A stretch of 64,000 nucleotides of DNA from IMG/VR virus record IMGVR_UViG_3300022661_000087. One strand, written 5' to 3'. A program made the translations under genes and the position numbers. Positions 2,175 through 18,646 of the stretch are shown piece after piece. The notes under the pieces were generated by a model. The model worked only from the letters and a program-made list of their open reading frames with translations, did not search any database and was not told where the DNA came from. Each line of letters opens with the position of its first letter. Within the stretch, counting starts at the first letter, position 1. Source of the stretch: an uncultured virus (IMG/VR IMGVR_UViG_3300022661_000087). Lineage: Duplodnaviria; Heunggongvirae; Uroviricota; Caudoviricetes.

Positions 2175-2199
2175 GTCACTTCGCTTCGCTCGTGACTTT

Positions 2200-3755: not shown

Positions 3756-3859
3756 TGTATCAGTTCCTTTCCTTTGATGAACTCATTATAGCACATTCTT
3801 GGAGATTTGTCAATAGGTTTTTGAAAAATATTTTTCGCCGGGGTTTCCACTCCCTGCCT

Positions 3860-4465: not shown

Positions 4466-4551
4466 AGTAAATTACCCTTTCTTGTGGAGCACTCGCTCCC
4501 TTGATTACATACTTATTATAGCACAGACTTAATAATTTGTCAAGCACTTTT

Positions 4552-4722
4552 TTAATTTTCATTGGAAAAAGGAACACAAGCTAAAAGCTCATTAGACGCT
4601 AATTCGATAATGTATCGATACATGGTTGCATCGTCATGGAGAGTTCCCCCAAAAGATAAAACAGTATCAATAATAACTTTGTGCAATTCAGCTTTAGCCT
4701 TGCGCATTTCTTCTGCGGTCAT
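4552..4722 (-). CDS. Hypothetical protein (56 aa)
   Basis: GAGGTGAGG RBS, own promoter; MTAEEMRKAKAELHK. Confidence 0.55.
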   Translation of the reverse strand: MTAEEMRKAKAELHKVIIDTVLSFGGTLHDDATMYRYIIELASNELLACVPFSNEN

Positions 4723-4911
4723 TTGCCTCACCTCTTAGGATTAGTATACCACCAATTGCGGGAAAAATCAAGATGACAAACTGCACAAAAAATTCGATTG
4801 GAAATTTACGGGGACTAGTTATTTTGACGAATTCCGGGCGCCACACTCGTTGGCGCACGGCGCAAAAAAGCCCCTGCCCCACGAATTGGGGGCAGGGGGA
4901 GGAAGGGGTCA

Positions 4912-5280
4912 TCACTGGATGACCCTGAAGAACGCCTTGCGCTTCTCCTCGATGCGCTCGACAGACACACCAATCATGCCACGCACGATGGCGCTCACTC
5001 GCTGATTAGTCAGCTCTGCGCAGGCAGGCACTTCCTTAATCAGCTCAGTGATGGAGAACAGACGATTGGGGTCTGCGCTCATGTGGGACAGAATGGCTTC
5101 TGCCACACCAGCATTGGCGACCTGCTGGGCAGTAGGCTTCTTCTCAGCAGAGTTCTTCTTCGCCAGGAGTTCCAGCTCATGCTCGATGAACTCGACCAGC
5201 GCAAGGTTGGACTTGACCTCAGCCAGGGTCAGCAGGGTGTTGAAATGGTCCTTCTTAGTCAGCTTCTTAGTGTTTGCCAT
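4912..5280 (-). CDS. Winged-helix-like protein, paralog 1 of 3
   Basis: Shares HELELLAKKNSAEKKPTAQQ and PACAELTNQRVSAIVRG with 6447-6815 and 9485-9844. Confidence 0.8.
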   Translation of the reverse strand: MANTKKLTKKDHFNTLLTLAEVKSNLALVEFIEHELELLAKKNSAEKKPTAQQVANAGVAEAILSHMSADPNRLFSITELIKEVPACAELTNQRVSAIVRGMIGVSVERIEEKRKAFFRVIQ

Positions 5281-5958
5281 AGTATCAGTTCCTTTCTGGT
5301 TTTTTAGGGTTTTCCTTCCCTTGATTACATACTTATTATAGCACATGGTTTTGAGTTTGTCAAGAGGTTTTCAAAAAATATTCGCGACTATTTTTTTTAT
5401 TCCCACAGCATCCTTGCGCTCACTGGACTTGTTTCTGCCCCCTGCCTTGAGTCTACTCGCACCCTTTCGTTGCTCACCACTCACCCTAGTAGGGGGGAAT
5501 CTTGCGTAGGAGTTGTAGAGTTTCAATTCGCCTGTGTCTGTTTCCACCATCTGTTGCGGTCTTGCCTCGAAGGAGTTCCCCTCTTGATTACATACTCATT
5601 ATAGCACATCTTGTGCTGTTTGTCAAGTGGTTTTTCAAAAGTTTTTTGAAAAAGTTTCGGTGGTCTGATTGGTGGGACAATCTAACCCCTCTGCCCAACA
5701 TTTTTCAACCCTCTGCGCCGACCCATCTGCGGGGGTTTACTTCATCCCCTTGACACTACTAATTATAGCAGATTTTTAGGAAAATGCAAGTGGTAATGTT
5801 GTACAAATAATTGGGTAAAAAACTTGTTGAACTTGTGCATTTTGCCGAATACCGGGCCGCACATCTGTGTGCGGCCGGCCGATTTTTGTGCAAATTGCAC
5901 AAATTTAAATTTAATTTGGAAAAAATAACGAAAAAATCGCCCTTTTGGGGCGATTTTC

Positions 5959-6330
5959 TCAACTTTTTGGCTTGCGTTTCTGCACAAGCGTCAGTTCGTA
6001 GGCATTTTCACCAACTTTTAAGGCGATTTGACGCTCTTTATTGGTGATTTCGACCATTTCGTAGCCATTTTCAGCCAAAAACTGAGCAATTTCGGCAATT
6101 ATCGTGGCTTTTGTGGGGTTTTCCTTGCGTTTTCGCTCGGTTTTCTGCCCATTTGTCTGCCTTGTGCCAGTATTTGCGAATTTTTTGGCTTGCTTTTCGG
6201 CTTCAGGTGAGAGGTCAAAAGCCATTCGCTCACCTCTGTCGATTGCCTTGTCGTCTGCGATAATCTGTTCGGCTTCTTCTTTGGAGCATTTCAGATTTCG
6301 CATAATGCGTTCGACTTGACTTTCTGCCAT
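5959..6330 (-). CDS. Hypothetical protein, DDKAIDRG family paralog 1
   Basis: Similar to 9000-9359. Confidence 0.8.
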   Translation of the reverse strand: MAESQVERIMRNLKCSKEEAEQIIADDKAIDRGERMAFDLSPEAEKQAKKFANTGTRQTNGQKTERKRKENPTKATIIAEIAQFLAENGYEMVEITNKERQIALKVGENAYELTLVQKRKPKS

Positions 6331-6446
6331 TGGTTTACCCCCTTTCTGTACTTACAGTATAGCACATCTTGGGCGGTTTGTCAAGACCTTTTTTGAAATT
6401 CCGTGCCCCATTTTGGGGGGGCTATTGCCCCCCCTTGGGGAGTGGC

Positions 6447-6815
6447 TCAGCGAATGGCTCTGAAATAAGCCTTTCGCTTCTCTTCCACACGCTCCACAGA
6501 GGTGCCGATGAGACCACGCACGATTGCGGACACTCGCTGATTGGTCAACTCAGCACACGCAGGCACTTCCTTGATAACCTCAGTGATGGTAAAGAGGCGG
6601 TTGGGCTGGCTCTGGAGATGAGCCACGATGGCTTCGCCGATGGAAGCATTGGCGGTCTGCTGAGCAGTGGGTTTCTTCTCAGCGGAGTTCTTCTTGGCGA
6701 GCAACTCCAACTCGTGCTCGATGAACTCCACGAGCATTGCGTTCTCCGCAACAGCGGGGATAGCCTTGAGCATTGCAAACTTCTGAGCCTTGGTAATCTT
6801 CTGAGTAGTAGCCAT
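6447..6815 (-). CDS. Winged-helix-like protein, paralog 2 of 3
   Basis: Same motifs as 4912-5280. Confidence 0.8.
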   Translation of the reverse strand: MATTQKITKAQKFAMLKAIPAVAENAMLVEFIEHELELLAKKNSAEKKPTAQQTANASIGEAIVAHLQSQPNRLFTITEVIKEVPACAELTNQRVSAIVRGLIGTSVERVEEKRKAYFRAIR

Positions 6816-7149
6816 AGTATCAATTCCTTTCTGGTTTTTAAGACTGTCCTTGTCTTTGTGTATTTATTATATCATAGGTTGAGCGATTTGTCAAGAGGTT
6901 TTTTTGATTTTTTTGAAAATCTTTTTTGAACCTTTGGCTTTCTCTCTCCCTTTGATGTATTCATTATATCACATCTTTGGGGGTTTGTCAAGAGGTTTTT
7001 TTAAGTTTTTCAAACTTTTTTTCGGTCTGTCCGCTTGGGTCTCTCCCTTACTGACATAGATAGTATACCACATCCAAAAGCGAATTGCAATAGGCAAACT
7101 GCACAAATTACAGGAAAATTAAAAAGATTATTTTGTGCAACATTTCCTC

Positions 7150-7178
7150 TTGACAAATTGTGCGGGGCATGGTATAAT
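7150..7178 (+). promoter_or_regulatory. Antisense promoter facing a GC stem-loop
   Basis: TTGACA-N17-TATAAT; equivalents at 10404-10432, 14370-14398 and 16493-16521. Confidence 0.8.
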
Positions 7179-7230
7179 GGTAAATTCGGCCGGGCACAGT
7201 CGCGCCCGGGCCGCGCAAAAAGCGAGGGTT

Positions 7231-7509
7231 TTACTCCTCGCTTTTCACCAGCTTCCGCACTTCGCCCAGAAGCTTCTTGATTTGTGCCATCTTTTCGTAG
7301 TCGTCCACGCAGGTTTCGATGGTGTCCACCAGATGGTCAATTTCGCCATTCAGATTGGCTTCGTACTTGCGGAAGCAGACAGTATCTCTGCCATCGATGA
7401 AGATTTCGAGGGGTTCGCCCTCGCGGATGCCCATTGACCGACGGATTTCTCTGGGGATAACCACTCTGCCGAGGTCATCAACTCTGCGGATAATTCCAGT
7501 TGCTTTCAT
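7231..7509 (-). CDS. AbrB/SpoVT-family transcription regulator
   Basis: MKATGIIRRVDDLGRVVIPREIRRSMGIREGEPLEIF matches the SpoVT/AbrB N-terminus. Confidence 0.9.
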   Translation of the reverse strand: MKATGIIRRVDDLGRVVIPREIRRSMGIREGEPLEIFIDGRDTVCFRKYEANLNGEIDHLVDTIETCVDDYEKMAQIKKLLGEVRKLVKSEE

Positions 7510-7577
7510 TGTATCAGTTCCTTTCCTCTTGGATTGTCTTAATTATAGCACATTTGGTGGAGTTTGTCAAGACCTTT

Positions 7578-8057
7578 TTACAAGGTCTTGCTTTCACTCA
7601 CAAAGTATTTTGCATCGTATTTTTCAAGCAAGGCTTTGACTTTCTTGCTTTTCTCTTGGCTGTCGCAGTAAATGTTGAACACAGACCACTTGCCGATTTT
7701 GGGAATGTAGTTGCAAGGGATTTCTTCTGCGGTCAAATCACAATGCAGGCTTTTGGTGTAGGGGTCAAAGACAGTTGCTTCAATCTTCCAAAGCTTGTCC
7801 TTGCGTGCCTTTTCTTCAATGAGTTTTACCACATAGACACCCACCAAATTACACAGAGCCACAATTCCTGCTTTGAGGTAGAGGTCAAGTTCACACATTA
7901 AGTAAACAGTGACGATGGTGTACAGACCATAGGCAACCGCATTGATAACTGCGGCAGACACCTTTCCGCATTTAACAGTGGCGATAGATTTTACAGTTTG
8001 AATGATAACATTGGCGATGTTCAGAGCGATGAACACAATCAGCAATTTCGTATCCAT
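7578..8057 (-). CDS. Membrane protein, DUF5698/DUF2179-like
   Basis: Three hydrophobic N-terminal helices plus a small soluble C-terminal domain. Confidence 0.6.
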   Translation of the reverse strand: MDTKLLIVFIALNIANVIIQTVKSIATVKCGKVSAAVINAVAYGLYTIVTVYLMCELDLYLKAGIVALCNLVGVYVVKLIEEKARKDKLWKIEATVFDPYTKSLHCDLTAEEIPCNYIPKIGKWSVFNIYCDSQEKSKKVKALLEKYDAKYFVSESKTL

Positions 8058-8151
8058 TCACTTCACTTCCTTTCTGTGGTTATTATAGCACAAATCTCTC
8101 TGTTTGTCAATACCCTTTTGGAAATTATTTTTCCGGGCGGAGCCAAAGGGG

Positions 8152-8397
8152 TTAGAACCCCCTGGCATCCTTGTCGTTGTCCTTGGCAGGCATCGGCACC
8201 GCAGGAGTGGGAGCCTTTGGCTTGTTGATAATGGCATCCACCTGCTCATAGAGTGCGTAAGCCCTCTTGGACTTCTTGTACACCTTGCGGAGTTCGGAGT
8301 AGGTGAGGGAGTTGAACTGCTCGTCGGTCATAGTGACACCGACCTTGCTGAGCTTGTTGCGGATGGACTTGAGGGACATTTCATTGAACATTTTCAT
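8152..8397 (-). CDS. Basic hypothetical protein
   Basis: Promoter and conserved leader upstream. Confidence 0.7.
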   Translation of the reverse strand: MKMFNEMSLKSIRNKLSKVGVTMTDEQFNSLTYSELRKVYKKSKRAYALYEQVDAIINKPKAPTPAVPMPAKDNDKDARGF

Positions 8398-8492
8398 AGT
8401 ATCAGTTCCTTTCTTGTTTTCTGTAATTATTATAGCACACTTTTGGATGTTTGTCAATAGGTTTTTTGAAACTTTTTTTCTTTTGTGGGGAA

Positions 8493-8675
8493 TTAGTACC
8501 CCCCACAACCGCGGTAAGTGCGGAAGAGACTGTCAGCCTTTTCCTTGGTCATCGGACCGAACTCTTCGCAGTAGTAGCGGAAAGAGAGTTCATCCCAACA
8601 CTCGACCACACAATCACCGCCGTTGCAGTAGTTCTGCATTGCGTAGTCCATGAACTGCTTGTAAGTCATACCCAT
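8493..8675 (-). CDS. Hypothetical protein
   Basis: AAGGAGG RBS and own promoter. Confidence 0.7.
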   Translation of the reverse strand: MGMTYKQFMDYAMQNYCNGGDCVVECWDELSFRYYCEEFGPMTKEKADSLFRTYRGCGGY

Positions 8676-8999
8676 TGTTGTTACCTCCTTGACTTTGTAC
8701 CCTTATTATACACCCGATAATGGGAAATGTCAATAGTCAATTTGCACAAAGATTTCGCCCCAAAAATTGTTGAAACTGGTTATTTCGCCGAAAAACCGGC
8801 GCTGGCGTACGTCAGCGCGCGGCCGAATTTTTGTGCAAAATGACGAAGACCCAAGGGCGCCCCCCTGGGTCTTTTCTCGGCTGTTTTGTTTTAGTACCAT
8901 ACCCCAGGGTTGGGCGCCTTCCCCCTAGTGGTTTACCTCCAGACGATGACAGCACACCGCCAATGGAATGGGGCCGATTGGCTCGACCCCTTAGGAGCC

Positions 9000-9359
9000 T
9001 TAGGAACGAGGGCAGGCAAGTGTGACCTTGTACTTCGTTCCATTGTGGATGAACAAGAACTCGCGTTCGGGGTTGTTGATGGTGAAATCTTCCACACCCA
9101 AAACTCGCAGACCATCCATCATTGCGGAGCAGATTTCAGCCTTTTCAGGCTTGGCTTTCTTCTCTCGCTTCACTGGGGTGGTGCTGACCTTGCGCTCGGC
9201 TTGTCTTGCCTTTTTTGCGCCTTTCTCAAGTTCGGGGTCAAGCTCAAACATCTTTGCGCCCCTGTCGATTGCTTTGTCATCCTCAATCAACTGGATTGCT
9301 TCCTCTCGGCTGATGCCGAGGCTTGCCATGTGCTTGGCAATTAACTTTTCATCAAGCAT
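9000..9359 (-). CDS. Hypothetical protein, DDKAIDRG family paralog 2
   Basis: Similar to 5959-6330. Confidence 0.8.
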   Translation of the reverse strand: MLDEKLIAKHMASLGISREEAIQLIEDDKAIDRGAKMFELDPELEKGAKKARQAERKVSTTPVKREKKAKPEKAEICSAMMDGLRVLGVEDFTINNPEREFLFIHNGTKYKVTLACPRS

Positions 9360-9484
9360 TGACTCACTTCCTTTCTGTGATTATAGTATAGCACAGACAG
9401 AGGGATTTGTCAAGTGCTTTTTGAAAATTTTTTCGCCGGGGTCAAGGTGGGCAGGGGTTACCCCCTGCCCTTGGGGGAGTAGGC

Positions 9485-9844
9485 TTACTCCGCAATCTTG
9501 CGGAAGTATGCCTTACGCTTTTCCTCGACACGCTCAACCTTGGTGCCAATCATACCACGCACGATGGCAGAAACACGCTGGTTGGTCAGTTCCGCACACG
9601 CAGGAACAGTCTTGATGAGGTCGGTGATGGTGTAGAGGACACCATCTTCCATCGCATTGACGATGGCATCAGCGACACCTGCGTTTGCCACCTGCTGTGC
9701 GGTCGGCTTCTTTTCCGCAGAGTTCTTCTTGGCGAGCAGTTCCAGTTCGTGGGCGATGAAAGCCTGCTCATCGGCAGTCAGAGGGTAGTTGGCAGAAATC
9801 TGCTTGAAGTAGTCAGCCTTGGTCATCTTCTTGTTGTTAGCCAT
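9485..9844 (-). CDS. Winged-helix-like protein, paralog 3 of 3
   Basis: Same motifs as 4912-5280. Confidence 0.8.
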   Translation of the reverse strand: MANNKKMTKADYFKQISANYPLTADEQAFIAHELELLAKKNSAEKKPTAQQVANAGVADAIVNAMEDGVLYTITDLIKTVPACAELTNQRVSAIVRGMIGTKVERVEEKRKAYFRKIAE

Positions 9845-9974
9845 AGTATCAATTCCTTTCGGTTTTAACGACTTGAACCTGTCGATGAATTTATTTGTAA
9901 GAGGTTTTCCTCTTTACATACTTATTATAGCACATCTTGATTTGTTTGTCAAGAGTTTTTTTTAATTTTTTTTT

Positions 9975-10205
9975 CTTTGGCTTGGCTGAGCCTTTAAGCC
10001 ACAGTTAGGGTGAGTCCGCTTTCACCACCAAAGAAATTGGCTTTTGTATCCTGCGTATCCACGACATTTTTTCAGCCTGCGTGGTCTGGTTCACATTTGT
10101 ATTCCGCAAACAGGAACACCTTGCGGTCGGGTCATTGGTAACAAGGTCTTACTCGCTCTCGTGGGCACCCACCTTTTCGTGGTCGCCTTGCCCTCGCCTT
10201 TTGTA
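9975..10205 (-). ncRNA. Candidate structured ncRNA
   Basis: Own promoter at 10211-10239, no RBS-led ORF, several GC stems. Confidence 0.4.
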
Positions 10206-10517
10206 CCCTTATTGTATCACACTTTAAGGGGTTTGTCAAGGGGTTTTCTCAATTTTTTTTGAGATTTTTTTTTCGCCCTTGGGGGCAGGCTCACCTATCT
10301 CCCCTTGACAATGATAGTATACCACAGACCGCACCAAAAGTCAATAGGTAATAATGCACAAAAACAGGAATTCAAATCAATCAAACTTTGTGTAACTTTT
10401 CTCTTGACAAATTGCTGGCGGTGTGGTATAATGGAAATTCCGGCGCCCACATCCGAGGGCGCCGCGCCCAAAAATTGAAATGAAAAAGCCACCCCTTGCG
10501 GGATGGCTCTTGGTTTG

Positions 10518-10760
10518 TTACTTTGCCAGGTGTGCCATCAGCACACCCAGGGTCATCAGAGCGAACTCAGACTGGACGAACTGGTCGGGGTGGTTGACGA
10601 GGGCGAGGACTTCGCCAGTCAGACCATCAACGCAGTGGGCGTGGACACCATCCATGTCCCTCTGCATCATTTCCAGAACTGCGACCTCGGGGTCGTTGGT
10701 TTCGACAGTGACCTTGGCATCATCGTAGAAGCTCTCAACAACATACTTGTAGTTCATCAT
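10518..10760 (-). CDS. Hypothetical protein
   Basis: Promoter and conserved leader upstream. Confidence 0.7.
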   Translation of the reverse strand: MMNYKYVVESFYDDAKVTVETNDPEVAVLEMMQRDMDGVHAHCVDGLTGEVLALVNHPDQFVQSEFALMTLGVLMAHLAK

Positions 10761-10848
10761 GGTATCATTTCCTTTCTGGTGTTTGGGATTTTCCTTTCCC
10801 TTTGTTGTATTTATTATAGCACACTCTTGGGGGTTTGTCAAGGGTTTT

Positions 10849-11256
10849 TTACATTCTTTCAGAAAAATATTTGAAACCCTTTTCGCAGATTTCGAGATAA
10901 ACCTCTCGGCTTACTCTCACCCACTCTTCGCTTTTTTCTACCTTGCCTTTGCAAACTGCATACAAAATTGCGTGGCACTGCCATTCGGACTTGCCGACCA
11001 TGGGGCGGGGAATGGTACAAAAATCAATGTGGAACATTCCAGGGTTGGTGGTGAGATAATCTTTCATTCTGCGTTGCAGGTTGTAGCTTTTACCAACCTT
11101 TACCAAATAGATTTCTTCATGGGTAAAGGGATTGAAATTGGTGCTACCTACAAGGTACAAACCTTCGCTTTCGGGTGCAGAGAAGCGCAGGGGGTTTGCT
11201 TCGTTAATAAATGCGGGAGTATTTCGCATAGCTTCCAAATGTTCTGCCCAAGTCAT
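10849..11256 (-). CDS. GIY-YIG/T5orf172-like nuclease
   Basis: GLYLVG...LVKVGKSYNLQRRM...EW. Confidence 0.65.
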   Translation of the reverse strand: MTWAEHLEAMRNTPAFINEANPLRFSAPESEGLYLVGSTNFNPFTHEEIYLVKVGKSYNLQRRMKDYLTTNPGMFHIDFCTIPRPMVGKSEWQCHAILYAVCKGKVEKSEEWVRVSREVYLEICEKGFKYFSERM

Positions 11257-11345
11257 TACTGTCAGTTCCTTTCTTGTTTTCTGAGTTAATTATAGCACAT
11301 GATTTTGAATTTGTCAATACCTTTTTTCGCCCGGGAGGGCAGATT

Positions 11346-12005
11346 TTAGAATCTGCCCTTGACCACTTGGAAGCGATAGGCGGAATCGCCCTTGTGAACA
11401 TTGCGAGTAAACTTGCGGTGAGTTGCCCAAACCGCACGCAGAATCTGCATTTCGATTTCACAATCTGCGAGGGCGGTGTGTTCCTCGACGAACTCAATGT
11501 CTCCGCTGATGAAGCGGTAGCAGATTTCTGCGGTCATCTGAACGTTTCCGCTCTTGGTTACAAAGCCATTTTCACAGCAGAATTTGTTGTACTTGGTGTA
11601 CTTGCCGATGGTCTCGAAAAATGCCTGCCAAGTGTCGATGAATTCCATTCCCTCGATACACTCAGCAACGAAAGTCTTGTTGAAGTCAAAACCGCTGTTG
11701 TGGGCGCAGGCGCAGGACACATTGTTTTCAGCAAGCCACGCAGAGAAGATTTCGCTTGCCTCTGCTTCGTTGTAGCAGATAATAGTTGCAGGGTCGCGGA
11801 GCAGGTCGCGGTAGTAGTCTTTTTTGAATTTGCCATAGAACGCAGAATCCAAAAGTAGGTTGCCGATGACCACGATGTTGATTCTGCTGATTTCTGCTCT
11901 CTTGGTGAAAGCAATGCCAGCGCAGTGGTAGGTAGGGCAGTGCGCCTGAGAAGCACCGCCGAGGGTTTCAGTGTCGATAATTGCAAAAGTTTTTTCAGTA
12001 AACAT
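11346..12005 (-). CDS. DEDDh 3'-5' exonuclease
   Basis: IIDTET, AHNSGFD and HTALAD motifs. Confidence 0.85.
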   Translation of the reverse strand: MFTEKTFAIIDTETLGGASQAHCPTYHCAGIAFTKRAEISRINIVVIGNLLLDSAFYGKFKKDYYRDLLRDPATIICYNEAEASEIFSAWLAENNVSCACAHNSGFDFNKTFVAECIEGMEFIDTWQAFFETIGKYTKYNKFCCENGFVTKSGNVQMTAEICYRFISGDIEFVEEHTALADCEIEMQILRAVWATHRKFTRNVHKGDSAYRFQVVKGRF

Positions 12006-12089
12006 TGGTATCATTTCCTTTCACTTGATAAATTTATTATAGCACAGATTGTTTGATTTGTCAATACCTTTTTTTAATTTTTCCGGGGA

Positions 12090-12494
12090 TTAGCCTTGCT
12101 GTAAGGCTACTCCCCTTTCACGCAGGTATTCTGCGAACTCGTCCGCAGGAAGTTTGTCCATGAGGGTGGACATGGGCAGGTGGGAGACTTCTTTGGTGTA
12201 GTTCCACACGCACACCTCTTTGAAGTTCCTCTTGGTGACAGTATAGTGGTTCATGCCACATTTCACCAATACCTTGGGGGTCTTGAACAGACCGATGTAG
12301 GCTTCTGCATTTCTTACCTTGTTTTCACAGACCGCTTCAAAAAAGCTCTCGAAAGTGTCGTAGTAAGTGCGGTTGGTGCGGTCGAGGGATTCTTCCGCAT
12401 CGAGCAGGTGCAGGTGCCACCAAATAGAAGTTTCTTCAAAATCTCTGCGAGGAGACAGAGAGATGGATTGTCCGCAATCGTAAACCAGTTTCAT
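12090..12494 (-). CDS. Hypothetical protein
   Basis: Promoter and conserved leader upstream. Confidence 0.7.
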   Translation of the reverse strand: MKLVYDCGQSISLSPRRDFEETSIWWHLHLLDAEESLDRTNRTYYDTFESFFEAVCENKVRNAEAYIGLFKTPKVLVKCGMNHYTVTKRNFKEVCVWNYTKEVSHLPMSTLMDKLPADEFAEYLRERGVALQQG

Positions 12495-12664
12495 GTGTAT
12501 CAGTTCCTTTCCTTTGTTGATACTATTGTATCACACCTTTTGGGATTTGTCAACTGTTATTTTGCACAAATAAATTGCACGGAAAATTGTTGAAACTGGT
12601 TATTCTGACGAAAATCGGCGCGCCTGGACCGTGAGCGCGCCGCCAAAAACAAACGACTGCTTTT

Positions 12665-12934
12665 TCAGCAGTCGTAAGTATAACAACCTGCGAAGGGGTC
12701 GAACCCGCATTCGTCCGCATCGGGCTCGTCCTCGCTTTCGCCCTGGGTCTGTTCCAGGTCGCGGTATCCTGCAAGGGTGTATTCCTCGTGCCACTGGTAA
12801 TGGTTTCCGCAGTGGTCGCACTCGCCAACCTTAAAGAGGGTCACAGTGGTGTTGTCCACCTCAATGTCGAGAGTATCGAACTCAACAACCTCGCCCCCGC
12901 AAGTGGGGCAAACTACAATTCCAGTTTTCAGCAT
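12665..12934 (-). CDS. Zinc-ribbon acidic protein
   Basis: CPTCG...CDHCG. Confidence 0.65.
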   Translation of the reverse strand: MLKTGIVVCPTCGGEVVEFDTLDIEVDNTTVTLFKVGECDHCGNHYQWHEEYTLAGYRDLEQTQGESEDEPDADECGFDPFAGCYTYDC

Positions 12935-13147
12935 TCTTCATCATCCTCCAATCTTTCTTTGATTGCTTCAACGATTATCTTGCCGACCTTGACAGCCATC
13001 ATCAAGGCGAATGCTCCGACAAAGCCAACCAATGCCCAGCCGATTTCTTCGGGGATTGCGCAAATCATTTCTAACATTTTTATCAGTTCCTTTCTTCTTT
13101 GTGTCTTAATTATAGCACATCAATTGCCGTTTGTCAAGAGGAAATTC

Positions 13148-13600
13148 TCAGATTTCTCTGAGAATTTCCAAGATGTTCTGCACATCGTAGGCTCTGCCTG
13201 TCCAGTTCGTTCTGTTGCGTTCTTCATCGTCGAACAGAATGTCGAGAGGATTGTTGCAGAAGTTCTGCTTCGGAGTGCCATAGGGAACGATGTGGATTTC
13301 GTTCCAGTTCACGCTCGGCAGGTGCTTTCTCAGCCAGTTCAGCTTGACTTCGGTAACTGCTTCGTTGTATTCAGCAGTTCCACTTTTGCTCAACCAAGAG
13401 ATAACTGCGAGGTTGTAGCCGTTCCGCTGAAGTGCGTTCAGCTTGCGAGCCAGTGCGGAGAGGTGGAGCAGAGGTCTTGCGTTTGCGTAGGGGAAAGTGT
13501 CACCTGCGATGAGGTATTCGAGCCAGTTCTCTACACCATAGAGGTCAGCGATTGTGCCGTCCATGTCGAAGTTAATTGTGATGTTCATCTGCTTTGCCAT
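13148..13600 (-). CDS. HAD-superfamily 5'(3')-nucleotidase-like protein
   Basis: FDMDGTIAD motif I and ILFDD motif IV. Confidence 0.8.
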   Translation of the reverse strand: MAKQMNITINFDMDGTIADLYGVENWLEYLIAGDTFPYANARPLLHLSALARKLNALQRNGYNLAVISWLSKSGTAEYNEAVTEVKLNWLRKHLPSVNWNEIHIVPYGTPKQNFCNNPLDILFDDEERNRTNWTGRAYDVQNILEILREI

Positions 13601-13690
13601 TTGTATCAGTTCCTTTCCTTTTTGTACCTTAATTATACACCCAAAACCGTGATTTGTCAATACCTTTTTTGAAAAAAGGGAAAGTTTTTT

Positions 13691-14164
13691 TTACTTTCCC
13701 TTTTTCATTTCTCTTGCCCGCTTCTGTGCCTTGTGGAGCACATCCACATTGGTCAGGCTTGCGTTTTCGTACTTGACCTGATACTGAACGCCACCGATTT
13801 CCACATCACCGCAGTAGTCAAAGCGGACATGGTCGGGAGTGTACTCACCCAGACCGCAAGCCTTGTGCAGATAGGCTTCGCACTTGTGACCCTTGTTCTT
13901 GTAAGGAATGGCTTCAAATTCAGCCTTGGTCATGATGGGGGTTGCACCCTTGGCAATCAGCTTATCCTTTTCGGATACGCTGATGTACATCTTGAATTTC
14001 TGCTGTCCGCCGTTCTTGGAGGACTCAAATTCTTCGTGTGCCCAACGAGGAGCGATGTGCTTGCAGTTGTAGATGTAGATGATACCCTTGCGCTCGAAGA
14101 AAATCAGAGTGCGGTCAGCGCCAGTCAGCTTGTTGTAGTAGCGGAAGAAATTACCCTTAGTCAT
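13691..14164 (-). CDS. Hypothetical protein, possible PD-(D/E)XK-like fold
   Basis: GDVEIGGVQYQVK segment; own promoter. Confidence 0.6.
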   Translation of the reverse strand: MTKGNFFRYYNKLTGADRTLIFFERKGIIYIYNCKHIAPRWAHEEFESSKNGGQQKFKMYISVSEKDKLIAKGATPIMTKAEFEAIPYKNKGHKCEAYLHKACGLGEYTPDHVRFDYCGDVEIGGVQYQVKYENASLTNVDVLHKAQKRAREMKKGK

Positions 14165-14459
14165 TGTTATTATCTCCTTTTCAGTTCCTTTTTGTATCTT
14201 AATTATAACACCAGTTTCCCGGTTTGTCAAGAACTTTTTTTCATTTTCTTGAACTTTTTTTTGATTTAGTGGTCTCTCTCAACCACAAGAACATTGTATC
14301 ACATCCGGAATAGAAAGTCAAGCACAATTTTAGGAAAAACAACTATTTATTTTTTGTGCAAATTGCCTATTGACAAATTGCTGGGGCTGTGGTATAATGG
14401 AAATAACGCGCGCCTGGGCCGTGGGCGCGCGACCGAAAAAGCAAAATGGAAAAAGCGCC

Positions 14460-14699
14460 TTAGTAGTAAGGCGCTTCGATTTCCAGTATCTCGGTTTGAA
14501 TGAGTGTAAAATGTGCCCTGAACCGACACCCGCACCCGCAAATGTAATCGTCTTTTTTCTCTCTGCGGTTGCTTGTATTGTCCTGGTACACCAGTTCGGA
14601 TTGGGCACTACTCCCGCAGTTAGGACATCTAATGCGAGGGTCACGCAATTGTGCTTGCCACTCTCGTGCTATTTCTGCTGCTGTTTTCATTGTTCTCAC
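14460..14699 (-). CDS. Small zinc-ribbon protein
   Basis: CPNCG...CGCG. Confidence 0.6.
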   Translation of the reverse strand: MRTMKTAAEIAREWQAQLRDPRIRCPNCGSSAQSELVYQDNTSNRREKKDDYICGCGCRFRAHFTLIQTEILEIEAPYY

Positions 14700-14735
14700 C
14701 TCTTGGCATTATTATAACATGGTTTGGGGATTTTG

Positions 14736-14960
14736 TCAACCCCCGCAAGCACATTTTTTTTCGTAATGTTCTCTAACAAGGAGAGCATCCCGCACTCGCT
14801 TCTGGTTGAAATCTTCTTTGTGAATTACTGTGCAATAGTAGTATTTTGTGCGGAAAATGGGCCAATTGGGATGAATTATCTTTCGATAGACTACATGAAC
14901 ATAGTCTTCGCCGAGCTTCCATGTGGCTTCGTACTCACCATCTGCCCCTTTAATAATCAT
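14736..14960 (-). CDS. Hypothetical protein
   Basis: Start overlaps the stop of the upstream gene. Confidence 0.55.
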   Translation of the reverse strand: MIIKGADGEYEATWKLGEDYVHVVYRKIIHPNWPIFRTKYYYCTVIHKEDFNQKRVRDALLVREHYEKKCACGG

Positions 14961-15112
14961 CCATTATCACCCCTTTTGAATTTCTGTCTGTTGTATTTCT
15001 TCTTGCTTTCTACCACAGAGCCACGCTTGCGAAAGTGGAGATACTGCTGAAGTTCTTCTCCCTCTTTCTTGAACATTCTGCGGTCGATTGTGTTTTTCTT
15101 TTTCTTACTCAT
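14957..15112 (-). CDS. Small highly basic protein
   Basis: GAGG RBS; Lys/Arg-rich. Confidence 0.6.
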   Translation of the reverse strand: MSKKKKNTIDRRMFKKEGEELQQYLHFRKRGSVVESKKKYNRQKFKRGDNG

Positions 15113-15174
15113 TTCGTTTACCTCTTTTCTTTTTGTAATTAAATTATACCATAGATTTAGGGATTTGTCAACCC

Positions 15175-15501
15175 CTAAATCCAATTATTTTCACAGTCCC
15201 ATGCTTTTGCCCGTCTGATGATTTCAGAGTAACCAGCAGGAGGATAACCACCAGTAGTTTCGTAGAACATCTTGCAGGCAATCTTCCATCTTGCAGGGTA
15301 GGCGGTGACAAGAATGTTGCTCTTGGCATCCATTACCATTAAGATACCAGTGGAAGTCAAGCAGTTTCTCTTTCCTCTGTAAATTGTGGTGCAAATGATT
15401 TCGCCGAAGCCTAACTCTCTATCCATTTTTACAAGTCTTTCTCTGCGTTCGGTGTAGCAGTGGTCGGTGAAACTCACGGTGATGCTCATGCTCTTTAACA
15501 T
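15175..15501 (-). CDS. Hypothetical protein (ends at TAG, with a TAA six codons later)
   Basis: GAGGAG RBS and own promoter. Confidence 0.65.
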   Translation of the reverse strand: MLKSMSITVSFTDHCYTERRERLVKMDRELGFGEIICTTIYRGKRNCLTSTGILMVMDAKSNILVTAYPARWKIACKMFYETTGGYPPAGYSEIIRRAKAWDCENNWI

Positions 15502-15568
15502 TTGATTTACTCTCCTCTCTTTTTGTATCTTAATTATAACACGGGAAAGGGGTTTTGTCAACCCCTTT

Positions 15569-16009
15569 TCAAAAAATTTTTTCGCCAATGTTTGTCACAA
15601 CTGTGGCTTCAATCCACCGCACGCAAATGCCCTTGCTTTCCAAAAGGCGATAGTATTGCAGGTCGTTGTCGAAATTTTGTTCGAAGTCTGCGATTGCCTT
15701 AAAGTTTGCGAGGATGGGGTTCTTGTGGTAGCGGAACTCAAGACGAGCACGCCAAGCCTCTTTGCTCTGCGAGGGTGCGAGGATAACAAAGGGAATGTTG
15801 TTGTTCATGCAGTATTCAATCACCACACGATGAGCGGAGATGAATACATTCTTGTCAGTAGCGAGGGCAACCGCCGTCCGCACATAGTTTTCTTCCCATC
15901 CTGCGACCTTGACAAATGCGGAGCTGTCGAGGTCAACAGTAGTATTGGGGTTATTTCTACAGTAGGTAGATTTTCCACTACCCTGATAGCCACAGTAAAT
16001 CATTTTCAT
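15569..16009 (-). CDS. P-loop kinase/NTPase
   Basis: Walker A GYQGSGKST. Confidence 0.75.
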   Translation of the reverse strand: MKMIYCGYQGSGKSTYCRNNPNTTVDLDSSAFVKVAGWEENYVRTAVALATDKNVFISAHRVVIEYCMNNNIPFVILAPSQSKEAWRARLEFRYHKNPILANFKAIADFEQNFDNDLQYYRLLESKGICVRWIEATVVTNIGEKIF

Positions 16010-16060
16010 TTCAGTTCCTTTCCTTTTGTACCTACATTGTATCACAGAGAAAGGCTTTTG

Positions 16061-16384
16061 TCAAGCCTTTTCTGCGAGAATTTCCAAAAGTTCATAGCCA
16101 GAAAGGAAAGTATTTCCTGCGAGGTGGTAGGCTCGGCAGTGCTCAGCCAGTTCTTCCCTTGCTCTGTCGTAGCTACGCAGAGCGGAAACCAGTACCCATT
16201 TATCCTCGGTTACATCGCCCGCAAACATCTTGTATTCTGCGGACTCTTGGGGCAACATAGCCATTGCCTTCTGTCTGCGGTTGATGACTCTCACACAGTA
16301 CTCAATCTTGTCCTTTGCATTGCGAGTAGCGATGACGAGTTCGTCTCTCTTGGTCTCTTCGGCAGTCTTGGTAATCTTCTTCAT
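16061..16384 (-). CDS. Hypothetical helical protein
   Basis: AAAGGAG RBS and own promoter. Confidence 0.7.
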   Translation of the reverse strand: MKKITKTAEETKRDELVIATRNAKDKIEYCVRVINRRQKAMAMLPQESAEYKMFAGDVTEDKWVLVSALRSYDRAREELAEHCRAYHLAGNTFLSGYELLEILAEKA

Positions 16385-16596
16385 GGTGTTTAGCTCCTTT
16401 GTTCTTTTGTTGTACTTAGTATACCACACGGAGACCGATTTGTCAATACCTTTTGGGAAAAATAATTATTTATTTTTTTTCTAATTTTCCTCTTGACAAA
16501 ATGGCTGGGATGTGTTATACTGGCAATTAGGGCGCGCCAGGACCGTTGGCGCGCCTATGGCGGGATTCGTCACATTGCACAATTAAAGGGTGTGCC

Positions 16597-16818
16597 TTAC
16601 TCTTGGCACACCCTCATCAGCAGTCTCTCATAGGACACACCTGCTACCTTACACAGCACACGCAGGTTGTCTCTCACCATCAGCTTCTCTGCGTAGGTGA
16701 TGTCCTCGTTGTCCTTGTTCAGTACCATGATGATGTACTTGTACTGATGGCTTGCCTGCACCTCAGGCTTTAGCTCTCTTACTGTGCTCAGCATCTTGTT
16801 GATAGGTCTCTTGTTCAT
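16597..16818 (-). CDS. Hypothetical protein
   Basis: GAGGAGG RBS; terminator overlaps the stop. Confidence 0.65.
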   Translation of the reverse strand: MNKRPINKMLSTVRELKPEVQASHQYKYIIMVLNKDNEDITYAEKLMVRDNLRVLCKVAGVSYERLLMRVCQE

Positions 16819-16835
16819 TGTCTTGTCCTCCTCTA

Positions 16836-16991
16836 TTAGTTCTTGTTGACAGCGATGATAGTGGCAATAGCAGCTACGCCAAAGGCTACGACTAGAGCCA
16901 CAAGAGTGATACCCAGCCACTCAGGACAAGTAGTAGTATTGTCAAGGTTGCTGTTAGCAATCCACATAGCGATGTTGTTAGAAATGGTCAT
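16836..16991 (-). CDS. Small single-pass membrane protein
   Basis: AAAGGAG RBS; WLGITLVALVVAFGVAAIATIIAV. Confidence 0.6.
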   Translation of the reverse strand: MTISNNIAMWIANSNLDNTTTCPEWLGITLVALVVAFGVAAIATIIAVNKN

Positions 16992-17196
16992 TGTTGTTAT
17001 CTCCTTTACTCTGTGAGGTTGTGTCCCTCTCTCTTTGTGTCTTTATTATAGCATTACGGGAGCTTTTTGTCAAGAGTTTTTTTGCTTATTTACGCAACTT
17101 TTTTTTAGCACCCCCTACAGTATGCCCCACTAGGGGACCTGACGCCTGTGCTCGGTGGCTACTACTACATAGTATAATAGAGTAAGGCTGTGTACC

Positions 17197-17478
17197 TTAC
17201 TCTACATCTACTACTCTGTCATCATAGATAGTATCACTGCCCATGGCTAGCATGGTTAGCACTACCCTTGTGCCTACACATGGTACAGTGTCACCCTCTA
17301 CATCATAGCACCACACATTGCCTGTGGTGTCCTCTGCGCTGATGGTGTTACCCTCTACCTCTACTACCACAGCTTCTCTTGTGTACCTATCATTAAGCTG
17401 TGCTTGACCTAGTGCATTGAAGGTCACTACCAGTAGTATAGCACACAGCACACACAGTACCTTCTCACTCATTGTCAT
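17197..17478 (-). CDS. Membrane-anchored or secreted small protein
   Basis: Hydrophobic N-terminus; first gene of the leftward early region. Confidence 0.65.
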   Translation of the reverse strand: MTMSEKVLCVLCAILLVVTFNALGQAQLNDRYTREAVVVEVEGNTISAEDTTGNVWCYDVEGDTVPCVGTRVVLTMLAMGSDTIYDDRVVDVE

Positions 17479-17621
17479 TACCTCACTGTTCCTTTGTTGT
17501 ATCTACAGTATACCACATTACAGGATGTTTGTCAATAGGTAAGATGCACAAATGTGTAGAACTTTTTTTGTGTAGGGTATTATTGCATGGCAGCTAGGGC
17601 CGCGCCGCACGTGCACGGCCC

Positions 17622-17710
17622 AGCGTGTGTATTGTGTATGTATTATTGTGTGTGTATTGTTTATTATACATACATTATTGTGTATGTATGAGGATGTGTT
17701 GTGTGTGTCT
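17622..17710. repeat. TG/TA-rich low-complexity tract at the early-region boundary
   Basis: Repeated GTGTGTATT/TGTATG units. Confidence 0.6.
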
Positions 17711-17881
17711 TTGCGCCTCTTTGCCGGGGCTGGCAATACCTTTGCTGTGTGCGCTCGCCGCGACGCAGACTATAGACTTTGTGTTTTTCCCCAGATGTGA
17801 ATAAAACCCCGGGGCCTATTTCGGGAAAAAAATTTTTTTGCCCAGACAAAACGCTTTTGTCTGGGCATTATAATCTTGAAA

Positions 17882-18646
17882 TCAATTTTCAATTTCGGAA
17901 AACGATAATTCTGGGAAAAAAGATAATAGGTACCCTATTGTCAAATTATTATACTCAGTATATGGTATTCTAATAAGACGAATATTATTTTCCTTACACC
18001 ATTGATTTTTTCTTGTATCACGCTCTTGTTGAATTTTTAACTGTTCTTCTCCACCCCATAATTCAACAGCTTCAAAATGTTGCTGACCATCATATTCAAT
18101 CAATCCCAATAATTTACCATCTTTAAAAATGGCGAAATCAAATGGTGATAAAATATTGAACTCTTTAATCCTATACTGTGTTTGAAAATCAATACCTGCT
18201 TTTACCAATAGCTGAGTAAGTTTTATTTCTCCGCTGGATTGAGAAGCGCATCCACAAGAAATAGTACGATTATGAAATTGACCTTTTAAATGCTCAACTC
18301 TGACATCAATAATGTTACCACACTCGCACTTACATTTAACATAACTGTGATTACCTTTTGATTCAGCTCTATCTATAATTTCTAATAAGCCAAATCTATC
18401 TCCTTTATGCCAAGAAATTAAACCTCTTTCTTCTGCTTTTTGTCTAATCTTTTCTCCTTTGCATTTATTACAACATTCACTTTTTCCATTTACTAAGCTA
18501 TCTCTTGAAACACTAATTACTTCTCCACATAATCCACATTTACAAAACCAAAATGTTGAATGCTGCTTAGAAGTTGGATGATAATCTCTTTCAATAACTT
18601 CCCATTCTCCAAATTTCATACCTGGTATAATTTTTAATGGTGGCAT
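17882..18646 (-). CDS. Putative homing-type endonuclease (Cys-rich repeats plus PD-(D/E)XK/DUF2726-like domain)
   Basis: Two FG.(W/L)..I...CKC.CG...SCG(C) repeats; C-terminal FDFAI...IEYDGQQHF. Confidence 0.75.
   Translation of the reverse strand: MPPLKIIPGMKFGEWEVIERDYHPTSKQHSTFWFCKCGLCGEVISVSRDSLVNGKSECCNKCKGEKIRQKAEERGLISWHKGDRFGLLEIIDRAESKGNHSYVKCKCECGNIIDVRVEHLKGQFHNRTISCGCASQSSGEIKLTQLLVKAGIDFQTQYRIKEFNILSPFDFAIFKDGKLLGLIEYDGQQHFEAVELWGGEEQLKIQQERDTRKNQWCKENNIRLIRIPYTEYNNLTIGYLLSFFPELSFSEIEN

What the first reader, a model, noticed from the sequence alone, without database searches (positions are those of the whole stretch)
7150..16615. Four strong antisense promoters that appear to transcribe only a 60-100 nt hairpin RNA
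Seen: plus-strand TTGACA-N17-TATAAT/TATACT at 7150, 10404, 14370 and 16493, with related spacers (AATTGCTGG..TGTGG). Each lies about 8 nt before a GC stem-loop, followed by the terminator hairpin of the convergent gene, with no RBS or ORF. The elements at 4834, 5852, 8796 and 12616 carry a (T/C)G(A/C)CGAA box instead of a promoter. Inference: a family of abundant small RNAs (protein sponge, antitoxin mimic, RNA anti-CRISPR, replication primer), or transcription that drives hairpin extrusion.
Basis: partly seen in the sequence, partly recalled or inferred. Interest (0 to 1): 0.8.

Follow-up and report, generated by a model that had tools for sequence, protein, structure and literature searches.

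The report
Antisense promoter-hairpin cassettes in phage
The early-gene block of this uncultivated phage carries a repeated cassette, a very strong backward-facing promoter followed at once by a GC-rich hairpin, that most likely makes antisense RNA against the neighbouring early gene and marks the borders between transcription units.

Summary
Four consensus sigma-A-type promoters (7150, 10404, 14370, 16493) lie on the strand opposite about 28 early-gene promoters. Each is followed 8 nt later by a 24-27 nt GC hairpin. Four more hairpins of the same family (4834, 5852, 8796, 12616) have no promoter. A covariance model finds exactly these 8 copies in the 105.8-kb record, all on one strand. Stems covary (10 of 10 pairs), and 76 non-redundant promoter+hairpin copies occur in related uncultivated phage contigs. 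The promoter is a separate subclass, with a G-rich spacer and GG after the -10.

The claim that only a 60-100 nt RNA is made is not supported. The facing terminators carry the U-tract for the gene strand only (T<=3 on the cassette strand in 54 of 60).

My best reading, at 0.4, is a cis-antisense and transcriptional-interference module at transcription-unit borders, similar to lambda oop. The hairpin would be the 5' end of the antisense RNA.

I found no support for RNA anti-CRISPR or tandem antitoxin repeats. No strand-resolved RNA data could be obtained, so function is inferred.

The parts
7150..7178 (+). Antisense promoter P_A-1: TTGACA, 17 bp, TGgTATAAT, followed by GG
   Evidence: 12 of 12 consensus positions, TG present
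7187..7213 (+). 27-nt GC hairpin, type A, at the predicted 5' end of the P_A-1 RNA
   Evidence: z -3.71 for 7183-7256; E 2.7e-9
7218..7245 (.). Terminator hairpin of the convergent gene 7231-7509. It has A5 before it and T4 after it on the + strand
7231..7509 (-). Facing early gene, 92 aa, AbrB/MazE-like fold family
   Evidence: (PF04014, E 1.9e-10)
10404..10432 (+). Antisense promoter P_A-2
10441..10464 (+). 24-nt GC hairpin, type A
   Evidence: E 8.6e-5
10478..10516 (.). Terminator hairpin of the convergent gene 10518-10760
14370..14398 (+). Antisense promoter P_A-3
14407..14431 (+). 25-nt GC hairpin, type A
   Evidence: z -3.96; E 1.3e-10
14448..14484 (.). Terminator hairpin of the convergent gene 14460-14690
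   Evidence: (called on the - strand only)
16493..16521 (+). Antisense promoter P_A-4 (TATACT -10, 11 of 12 consensus positions)
16530..16556 (+). 27-nt GC hairpin, type A
   Evidence: z -5.63; E 8.4e-9
16587..16614 (.). Terminator hairpin of the convergent gene 16597-16818. There is no T run after it on the + strand
4834..4860 (+). 27-nt GC hairpin, type B (no sigma-A promoter), preceded by TGACGAA
   Evidence: E 1.1e-11
5852..5878 (+). 27-nt GC hairpin, type B. It is followed by the palindrome TTTGTGCAAATTGCACAAA
8796..8822 (+). 27-nt GC hairpin, type B. The scan also calls it a - strand terminator (tail CGGTTTTTCG)
12616..12642 (+). 27-nt GC hairpin, type B
   Evidence: E 1.4e-12
7062..7090 (-). 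Divergent partner promoter of P_A-1. The two -35 hexamers are 59 bp apart, and two TTGTGCA motifs lie between them
10316..10344 (-). Divergent partner promoter of P_A-2 (59 bp between the -35 hexamers)
14293..14321 (-). Divergent partner promoter of P_A-3 (48 bp between the -35 hexamers)
16418..16446 (-). Divergent partner promoter of P_A-4 (46 bp between the -35 hexamers)

Best explanation
The cassette is a polar boundary module of the phage's early transcription units. It sits just behind the terminator of an early gene and back-to-back with the promoter of the next unit.

In its full form (type A) it carries a dedicated, very strong sigma-A-type promoter, P_A, that fires back towards the gene just ended. 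The RNA begins with a 24-27 nt GC stem-loop within a few nucleotides of its 5' end. By analogy with known 5' stem-loop stabilisers, this should make the RNA long-lived.

The terminators it meets are built for the opposite direction, so most P_A transcripts should run on as antisense RNA into the facing early gene. The likely effects are three:
- head-on interference with RNA polymerases coming from the facing strong promoter;
- pairing with the 3' end of the facing mRNA, as lambda oop RNA does with cII mRNA;
- shielding of the next unit's promoter from read-through.

In some relatives the same cassette faces a gene-strand promoter directly, with about 37 bp between the two -10 elements. The two promoters can then hardly be occupied at once.

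What is shown: the anatomy, the polarity, the covariation, the separate promoter subclass, the conservation in relatives and the one-directional terminators. What is inferred: that P_A is active, where its RNA starts and ends, and every effect on the facing gene.
For: - Promoter under selection. There are four near-consensus sites in the window and 76 non-redundant promoter+hairpin copies in the window plus the fetched viral loci. Many come from close relatives and are not independent.
- Separate subclass. GG follows the -10 in 16 of 22 promoters on the antisense strand against 1 of 111 on the gene strand. The spacer is G-rich in the first group and C-rich in the second.
- Hairpin placed at the RNA start. 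The distance from the -10 to the stem is 7-8 nt in 61 of 76 copies. In the 17 facing gene-strand promoters the stem starts only 2-4 nt after the -10, so the complete hairpin belongs to the P_A transcript alone.
- Structure is selected. Pairing is 83.1% against 60.5% in shuffles, 10 of 10 pairs show double changes, and slid controls give 31-41%.
- Polarity. All 35 model matches at E<=0.001 in six sources lie on the strand opposite the early genes (16 of the 35 were training sequences). In the window's own record the count is 8 of 8.
- One-directional terminators.
- Border position, with a divergent partner promoter 46-59 bp away. In relative L018 nearly every early unit has one, 10 cassettes in 14 kb.
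- Precedent. Lambda pO-oop-tO overlaps the cII 3' end by 52 bases, with RNase III cleavage of the hybrid proposed (PMC5869508, passages read). SR6 of prophage SPbeta is a 100-nt RNA overlapping the 3' end of yonT (PMC5848175, abstract start in the search listing).
Against: - No RNA evidence. The only runs that hold the region are contig sets without strand or ends.
- Promoter-less copies keep perfect stems and are the majority in two relatives: about 10 of 13 in L017 and 7 of 10 in L019. The hairpin therefore has, or had, a role that does not need P_A.
- The loop is partly conserved (C at column 31 in 30 of 32 sequences, G at column 32 in 28 of 32) and the hairpin length is fixed (27 nt in 33 of 76). 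A plain stabiliser does not require either. Both hint at a specific binding partner.
- The facing genes belong to unrelated families, so no common target is evident.
- The P_A at 7150 does have a T4 tail after the next hairpin. Some copies may therefore make a discrete short RNA.
- Folding energies and G-U counts do not favour either strand: the + strand folds better in 23 of 42, the - strand in 18, and G-U pairs number 73 against 54.
Confidence: 0.4

Rival explanations
1. A family of discrete, abundant small RNAs acts in trans through the conserved hairpin. It would serve as a decoy or sponge for a host or phage RNA-binding protein, a nuclease or a defence sensor. The position opposite early genes would be incidental.
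For: - The promoter is very strong and kept in 76 copies.
- Hairpin size is fixed, and the loop core and the 3' flank CC(G/A)AAAA are partly conserved.
- The same loop types recur in the same orientation across phages.
- In the 15 face-to-face copies the hairpin is followed by CCATTTTA, which could end the RNA at about 40 nt.
- The predicted RNAs fold as two clean hairpins, with z from -2.4 to -5.6.
Against: - Stem sequences differ widely between copies within one phage. A single protein would have to read shape plus a short loop core.
- Most copies have no terminator of their own.
- Promoter-less copies would be silent, yet they are maintained.
- No partner protein was identified. Pfam finds no RNA-binding or nuclease family among the 28 early ORFs scanned; the only hits are HD, AbrB/MazE-like, T5orf172, NT5C, AAA_33 and FolD.
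Confidence: 0.2
2. The hairpin itself is the working part. It would be a second, back-up terminator or insulator for the gene strand, or a DNA-level border and recombination site. P_A would be an accessory that parks RNA polymerase as a head-on roadblock, and its RNA would be a by-product.
For: - Promoter-less copies are common and intact.
- 8796-8822 is called a - strand terminator. By my reading of the flanks listed, roughly half of the type B copies have a 4-5 A run before the stem, which is a U run on the gene strand.
- Every copy lies directly behind a gene's terminator and ahead of the next unit's promoter.
- A mosaic junction between relatives falls exactly at a hairpin. L019 10679-10801 matches window 12525-12647, and L019 10772-11107 matches window 14408-14744.
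- GG after the -10 is, from memory, the optimal discriminator for long-lived open complexes.
Against: - In type A copies the gene-strand tail after the stem is poor (GAAUUUCC). In L018 it is often A-rich (GAAAAACC), so it is not a terminator there.
- The exact 7-8 nt spacing between the -10 and the stem, and the fact that the facing promoters start inside the stem, point to a role in the P_A RNA.
- The element is polar, with different 5' and 3' flanks, which a pure DNA palindrome need not be.
Confidence: 0.2
3. The hairpin is a loading site for a processive antiterminator, comparable to lambda nut boxB or HK022 put. Early in infection P_A transcripts would stop. Once a phage factor binds the nascent hairpin, the polymerase would become terminator-resistant and sweep antisense across the early block, shutting it off and running towards the opposite-strand late block.
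For: - The hairpin lies immediately after the start site, and its size and loop core are conserved.
- A conserved A-rich box follows the stem.
- P_A points the same way as the + strand block that starts at 21.3 kb.
- Promoter-less copies on the same strand could reload the factor.
Against: - Most terminators on the way are already weak in that direction, so antitermination would have little to overcome.
- The late block has its own consensus promoter at 21357.
- Pfam finds no antiterminator family in the 28 early ORFs.
- Four to ten loaders in each early block is unlike any nut or put system I recall.
Confidence: 0.07
4. The cassettes make RNA anti-CRISPRs: solitary CRISPR-repeat mimics, each with its own promoter.
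For: [quoted passage not shown]
- The element is a GC hairpin of repeat-like size with a flank.
- One copy is followed by ATTGAAAT (10471-10478). From memory this resembles the 3' end of some class 1 repeats.
Against: - Stem sequences differ between the 8 copies of one phage, which does not fit mimicry of one host repeat.
- No Rfam family is matched at E<=5. My recollection is that Rfam holds CRISPR-DR families.
- Among 120 bacterial loci matching one hairpin subfamily, none holds more than one match, so none is an array. The low-GC hits are copies of the cassette itself.
- The host and its repeats are unknown, so identity to a host repeat could not be tested.
Confidence: 0.03
5. The cassettes are replication primers or R-loop origins: a promoter followed by an easily opened A-rich stretch.
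For: - A strong promoter is followed by a hairpin and an A-rich tract.
- From memory, T4 and T7 origins consist of a promoter plus a downstream unwinding element, and oop RNA was once proposed as a primer.
Against: - Four to ten copies within 12-14 kb, all confined to the early block.
- Promoter-less copies exist.
- There is no switch in cumulative GC skew at the elements.
Confidence: 0.04

Closest known systems
Lambda pO-oop-tO (OOP antisense RNA)
   Same: A short unit with its own constitutive promoter lies just downstream of a convergent phage regulatory gene. Its RNA is complementary to the 3' end of that gene's mRNA. OOP overlaps cII by 52 bases, and RNase III cleavage of the hybrid has been proposed (PMC5869508, passages read).
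   Different: OOP is a single copy with its own terminator tO. It has no conserved 5' hairpin family and no promoter-less variants. Here there are 4-10 copies per early block, most without an evident terminator, and there is no sequence relation.
3'-overlapping type I antitoxin RNAs of Bacillus prophages (e.g. SR6/yonT, SR4/bsrG)
   Same: These are convergent antisense RNAs in Firmicute phage DNA that overlap the 3' end of a small gene. SR6 is 100 nt (PMC5848175, abstract start in the search listing).
   Different: The facing genes here are not small hydrophobic toxins. They are 73-92 aa soluble-looking proteins, one of them AbrB/MazE-like. No toxin was tested.
Face-to-face promoter switches with transcriptional interference (coliphage 186 pR/pL and P22 Pant/Psar, both recalled; general mechanism in PMC5001618 and PMC6593788, abstracts in the search listing)
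   Same: A strong promoter converges on another promoter at short range. In 15 of 76 family copies the two -10 elements are about 37 bp apart.
   Different: In the window itself P_A faces a terminator and a whole gene (350-580 bp to the facing promoter), not a promoter. The GC hairpin between the promoters has no counterpart that I know of.
RNA anti-CRISPRs / viral solitary repeat units
   Same: A promoter is followed at once by a repeat-sized hairpin in a viral genome (PMC10651486, passages read).
   Different: No similarity to any known repeat family was found, and the copies differ from each other.
Intrinsic terminators and REP-like extragenic palindromes (recalled)
   Same: GC-rich extragenic hairpins sit behind genes. 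One copy (8796-8822) scores as a gene-strand terminator.
   Different: The element is polar with A-rich flanks on both sides of the cassette strand. It is coupled to a dedicated promoter at a fixed 7-8 nt distance.

Membership tests
cis-antisense sRNA of the oop / type I antitoxin kind | Own promoter, convergent to the target gene and placed just beyond its 3' end | tested here: met
   P_A sits 53-104 nt beyond the stop codons of genes 7231-7509, 10518-10760, 14460-14690 and 16597-16818, on the opposite strand.
cis-antisense sRNA of the oop / type I antitoxin kind | The transcript overlaps the target mRNA | tested here: inconclusive
   Any RNA from P_A must cross the facing terminator hairpin. 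No transcript was observed, because the runs held only contigs without strand.
cis-antisense sRNA of the oop / type I antitoxin kind | Own terminator that gives a discrete short RNA | tested here: not met
   No + strand terminator is called behind the four P_A. The next hairpin has T<=3 in its tail in 54 of 60 family copies.
cis-antisense sRNA of the oop / type I antitoxin kind | Lowers expression of the facing gene | not testable with these tools
   This needs reporter or infection experiments.
RNA anti-CRISPR (Racr / solitary repeat unit) | Sequence and structure similar to a CRISPR repeat of the host | tested here: inconclusive
   The host is unknown. No Rfam family is matched at E<=5. The 8 copies differ in stem sequence.
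RNA anti-CRISPR (Racr / solitary repeat unit) | Promoter close upstream | tested here: met
   This holds for the 4 type A copies and not for the 4 type B copies.
Type III antitoxin RNA (ToxI-like) | Tandem direct repeats of about 36 nt (recalled) | tested here: not met
   Tandem Repeats Finder reports only a 97-bp promoter duplication at 6854-7049 and a TG-rich repeat at 17630-17658. The hairpins are dispersed 1-4 kb apart.
Bidirectional intrinsic terminator | GC hairpin with an A run before it and a T run after it | tested here: not met
   Flanks are A-rich on both sides of the cassette strand in 48 of 76 copies. Only 5852 and 8796 have a T run after the stem.
nut/put-type antitermination site | Hairpin in the nascent RNA close to the promoter, plus a cognate antiterminator | tested here: inconclusive
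   The position is met. Pfam finds no antiterminator family among the 28 early ORFs, but small novel proteins cannot be excluded.
N4-type hairpin promoter (recalled: 5-7 bp stem, 3-nt loop, used by a virion RNA polymerase) | Short stem with a 3-nt loop that serves as the promoter itself | tested here: not met
   Stems here are 8-10 bp with 7-11 nt loops, and they sit downstream of a sigma-A consensus promoter.
Any described RNA family (Rfam 15) | Match to a curated covariance model | tested here: not met
   There are 0 matches at gathering score in the whole window. None of the 11 weak matches at E<=5 in 2500-18500 lies on a GC hairpin of the cassette family; STnc320 at 5916-5965 overlaps the neighbouring terminator 5929-5961 of the 5852 element.

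The most novel reading that the evidence does not exclude
The cassettes encode a previously undescribed class of phage RNA: a 5'-triphosphate GC minihelix of fixed size (24-27 nt) with a short conserved loop core. It would be made in bulk from a dedicated promoter subclass (G-rich spacer, GG discriminator) at many sites of the early block. A specific host or phage protein would recognise it, for instance as a decoy for a nuclease or an RNA-sensing defence, or as a handle that reprograms the transcribing polymerase. The promoter-less copies would be the same signal read within longer antisense transcripts. The family would then be a signature of a whole clade of uncultivated, probably TAG-recoding, phages of gut Clostridia.
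Probability: 0.2. Interest if true: 0.85.

Novelty: new variant of a known kind. Interest (0 to 1): 0.6.

Why it matters
Lytic phages are usually thought to time their early genes with promoters, terminators and proteins. Here a repeated, sequence-defined antisense cassette marks nearly every border of the early block. It is conserved, with compensatory changes, across many uncultivated phages of gut and rumen type.

If it works as proposed, it is a compact natural device for insulating and throttling very strong transcription units, and so of interest for synthetic circuit design in Firmicutes. It would also be a handle for annotating the early regions and orientation of such phages.

If the hairpin RNA instead has a partner protein, it would add a new kind of phage small RNA. 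Either way the prediction is simple to test: + strand 5' ends at four named positions.

Tried and rejected
- RNA evidence. The look-up of sequencing runs gave 10 runs, all kept as contigs. Laying 4 of them (3 on record as RNA, 1 guessed) gave fragmentary pieces at 90-99% identity from relatives, with no strand and no ends. Contigs do span 16357-16682, 16464-16689 and 8548-8914, but this says nothing about transcription. No verdict.
- Which strand folds. Folding energies of 42 elements on either strand (+ better in 23, - better in 18, mean difference -0.17 kcal/mol), G-U counts (73 against 54, inflated by face-to-face duplicates) and mismatch types in 14 strictly selected hairpins (0 G-U, 7 A-C, mostly at the loop-closing position) give no usable asymmetry.
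- Type B box as another promoter type. By eye, against recalled consensus sequences for sigma-D/28, sigma-H, ECF and sigma-54, the spacings do not fit. No tool was used. The box aligns with TAATGGAAA of type A. Intermediate forms exist in L019: at 6415 the -10 is kept and the -35 lost, and at 1262 TTGACA lies 10 nt from the stem.
- Spo0A idea. TGNCGAA is, from memory, the Spo0A box. Three of the 4 window copies fit it, but the L017 copies do not. Left as an untested lead.
- Gene-strand terminator as the general role. Rejected for type A, see the second rival.
- Known relatives. No DNA match in 50,697 GenBank phage records, either by megablast of 13 kb or by blastn of one cassette at E<=1e-3.
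- The ORF-less stretch 9972-10204 (- strand) folds no better than shuffles (z -1.07).

Full report
**Setting.** The window is bases 2160-66159 of a single 105,768-bp virus record that CheckV rates 56% complete. Window 2-18 kb is a block of small - strand genes with 43-48% G+C, against 29-41% in the rest. PHROGs finds portal, terminase, virion and tail tape-measure proteins on the + strand from about 24 kb. The best named protein-level relative is the gut phage phAss-1, at 36% identity over 56% of one structural protein. Its authors report TAG recoding and guess a Clostridia host (PMC10607447, passages read). No DNA match exists in 50,697 GenBank phage records.

- The window has 32 perfect TTGACA-N16-18-TATAMT sites against 0.18 expected.
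- Each of the four is followed after 8 nt by a GC stem-loop, and then by the terminator hairpin of the convergent gene.
- The predicted RNAs fold into two clean hairpins joined by an A-rich linker, with z-scores from -2.4 to -5.6.

**One family, polar and confined to the early block.**
- Sixteen copies with 27-nt hairpins, from the window and three relatives, align without gaps.
- On that alignment 83.1% of cells pair, against 60.5% in shuffles (0 of 500). All 10 pairs show changes on both sides. Sliding the partner by 1-3 columns gives 31-41%.
- A covariance model built from it finds 35 matches at E<=0.001 in the window and five loci of relatives. Sixteen of these are its own training rows. 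Every match lies on the strand opposite the early genes. The 24-nt hairpins of relative L018 score poorly with this model: only 2 of its 11 elements reach E<=0.001.
- In the window's whole record the model finds 8 matches, all on the + strand, all between window 4822 and 16570.
- The consensus reads (T)AATG(G/C)(G/C)AAAtt, then C(C/G)G..CGC, a loop with a conserved CG core, GCG..C(G/C)G, then CC(A/G)AAAA.

**Relatives.**
- An exact-pattern scan of IMG/VR with the promoter gave 16 loci in 9 contigs.
- A shorter pattern covering the -10 and the leader gave 100 loci.
- Over the window and loci L017-L121, 93 non-redundant promoters are followed by a GC hairpin within 14 nt. In 76 of them the stem starts 5 or more nt after the -10 (7-8 nt in 61). 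The hairpin is 27 nt long in 33 and 24-25 nt in 25.
- Many of these come from close relatives, so they are not 76 independent events.
- In three fetched early blocks the cassette again lies antisense to the genes: 3 with promoter and about 10 without in L017, 10 and 1 in L018, 3 and about 7 in L019.
- In L018 almost every early unit is bracketed by its own promoter and a cassette.

**A separate promoter subclass.** In the four phages, GG follows the -10 in 16 of 22 antisense-strand promoters against 1 of 111 gene-strand promoters. Three of the 22 are ordinary promoters of the opposite-strand block. The spacer is G-rich (50-68% G at positions 8-12), whereas gene-strand spacers are C-rich. From memory, a G-rich discriminator favours long-lived open complexes in E. 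coli. I did not test this.

**Where the RNA would end.**
- The consensus scan calls - strand terminators at 4898-4871, 5961-5929, 8873-8846, 12675-12653 and 14477-14452. It calls none on the + strand behind the four promoters.
- The tails on the + strand are TTTT CACC, gttactttgc (after a stem that already uses the T's), agtatctcgg and catcagcagt.
- In the family, the hairpin that follows has 3 or fewer T in the next 8 nt in 54 of 60 cases, 4 T in 3 and 5 or more in 3. It has 5 or more A before it in 37 of 60 (my hairpin picking there is crude).
- These terminators are therefore built for the facing gene. The cassette RNA should mostly run on, antisense, into that gene. The 7150 copy is the best candidate for a discrete RNA of about 65 nt.

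**Neighbourhood.**
- Each P_A stands back-to-back with a - strand promoter, with 46-59 bp between the -35 hexamers.
- The motif TTGTGCA occurs 19 times in the window. Thirteen of these lie within 120 nt of a hairpin centre, a zone that is 3% of the window (binomial P 4e-16). At 5886-5902 it forms a perfect palindrome. In L017 a different motif (TTTAACA) takes the same place. This looks like an operator for an unknown regulator of the divergent promoter pair.

**Face-to-face variant.**
- In 15 of the 76 copies the 3' flank of the hairpin is the -10 of a gene-strand promoter, so two promoters converge with about 37 bp between their -10 elements.
- In those 17 facing promoters the stem begins 2-4 nt after the -10. 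Their transcripts would start inside the stem, and only the P_A RNA would carry the whole hairpin. This ties the hairpin to the P_A transcript.
- It also shows that P_A can directly oppose a promoter, the arrangement in which transcriptional interference is known (PMC5001618 and PMC6593788, abstracts in the search listing; coliphage 186 and P22 sar recalled).

**Type A and type B are variants of one locus.**
- Window 5743-7219 aligns with L019 2599-4080, keeping a type B and a type A copy in place.
- At another site L019 10679-10801 matches the upstream part and hairpin of the window's type B copy at 12616, while L019 10772-11107 matches the hairpin and facing gene of the window's type A copy at 14407. 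This is a recombinant joint at the hairpin.
- Intermediate forms, with the -10 kept and the -35 lost, or with TTGACA 10 nt from the stem, occur in L019.
- The promoter can therefore be lost or swapped while the hairpin stays. Any model must explain this, and my best one explains it only in part.

- RNA anti-CRISPR. No Rfam family is matched. A scan of bacterial genomes with one hairpin subfamily returned 120 single-match loci and no array. The seven low-G+C hits I read that carry the cassette are copies of it on contigs binned as Clostridia, Eubacteriales, Acutalibacteraceae and Ca. Aphodosoma MAGs, which is a weak hint at the host.
- Antitoxin repeats. There are no tandem copies.
- Sponge, primer and extrusion could not be tested.

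**Verdict.** This is a real, conserved and polar promoter-hairpin cassette. It is most simply read as an antisense, interference and border module of the oop kind, with a 5' stabilising hairpin (0.4). The main alternatives are a trans-acting hairpin RNA family (0.2) and a hairpin-centred terminator or border element with the promoter as accessory (0.2). All functional statements are inferences from sequence. The attempt to obtain strand-resolved RNA data failed.

Noticed in passing
window 22000-64000 and the rest of the record (G000 24160-105768): Late genes look TAG-recoded. Reading TAG through raises + strand open frames of 300 or more codons from 18 (10,443 codons) to 24 (20,678 codons). 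Reading TGA through changes almost nothing (10,530) and TAA little (12,093). The portal and terminase ORFs match only parts of their PHROG profiles. ARAGORN finds no tRNA in the window or in the 105.8-kb record, and the record is rated 56% complete. The distant relative phAss-1 is reported as TAG-recoding (PMC10607447).
   Followed up: partly
window 2000-18000 against the rest: The early block has 43-48% G+C against 29-41% elsewhere, with a sharp drop at about 18 kb.
   Followed up: no
window 9972-10204 (- strand), 5370-5598 (- strand), 5640-5750 (- strand): Consensus promoters drive stretches without a convincing ORF. The stretch 10038-10258 is the best-conserved segment against L019 (88.7%, against about 70-77% for genes). 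It lies in the most deeply covered bin in three of the four runs laid, though the tool warns that depth cannot rank genes. Its fold is no better than shuffles (z -1.07).
   Followed up: partly
window 6854-7049 and 7062-7090: Three promoters stand in tandem (7090, 6991, 6894) ahead of gene 6447-6815, including a 97-bp duplication of promoter plus leader. Genes 4912-5280, 6447-6815 and 9485-9844 look like paralogues by eye from the translations (no alignment was run). Each is preceded by stacked promoters.
   Followed up: no
window 4782-16582, near every cassette: The motif TTGTGCA/TGCACAA clusters beside the cassettes: 13 of 19 window copies lie within 120 nt of a hairpin centre. It forms a perfect palindrome at 5886-5902. 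This is probably an operator for the divergent promoter pairs. Relative L017 uses TTTAACA instead.
   Followed up: partly
window 3010-3115: A + strand promoter (TTGATT-N17-TATAAT, 3010-3038) is followed by a terminator-like hairpin at 3066-3083 and by CCGGTCGG/CCGACCGG inverted repeats at 3097-3115, at the left edge of the early block. L019 has CCGATCGG repeats at the matching place.
   Followed up: no
window 17596-17720: A GC hairpin is followed by a TG-rich low-complexity stretch (TATTGTGTATGTAT x2.1) at the right edge of the GC-rich block.
   Followed up: no
window 4834, 5852, 12616 upstream boxes: TGACGAA, TGCCGAA and TGACGAA fit the TGNCGAA box that I recall as the Spo0A binding consensus. 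The match is not kept in relative L017.
   Followed up: no
L019 against the window: The early blocks of related phages are mosaics of the same gene modules in different order. The repeated promoter, hairpin and terminator sequences lie at the joints.
   Followed up: partly
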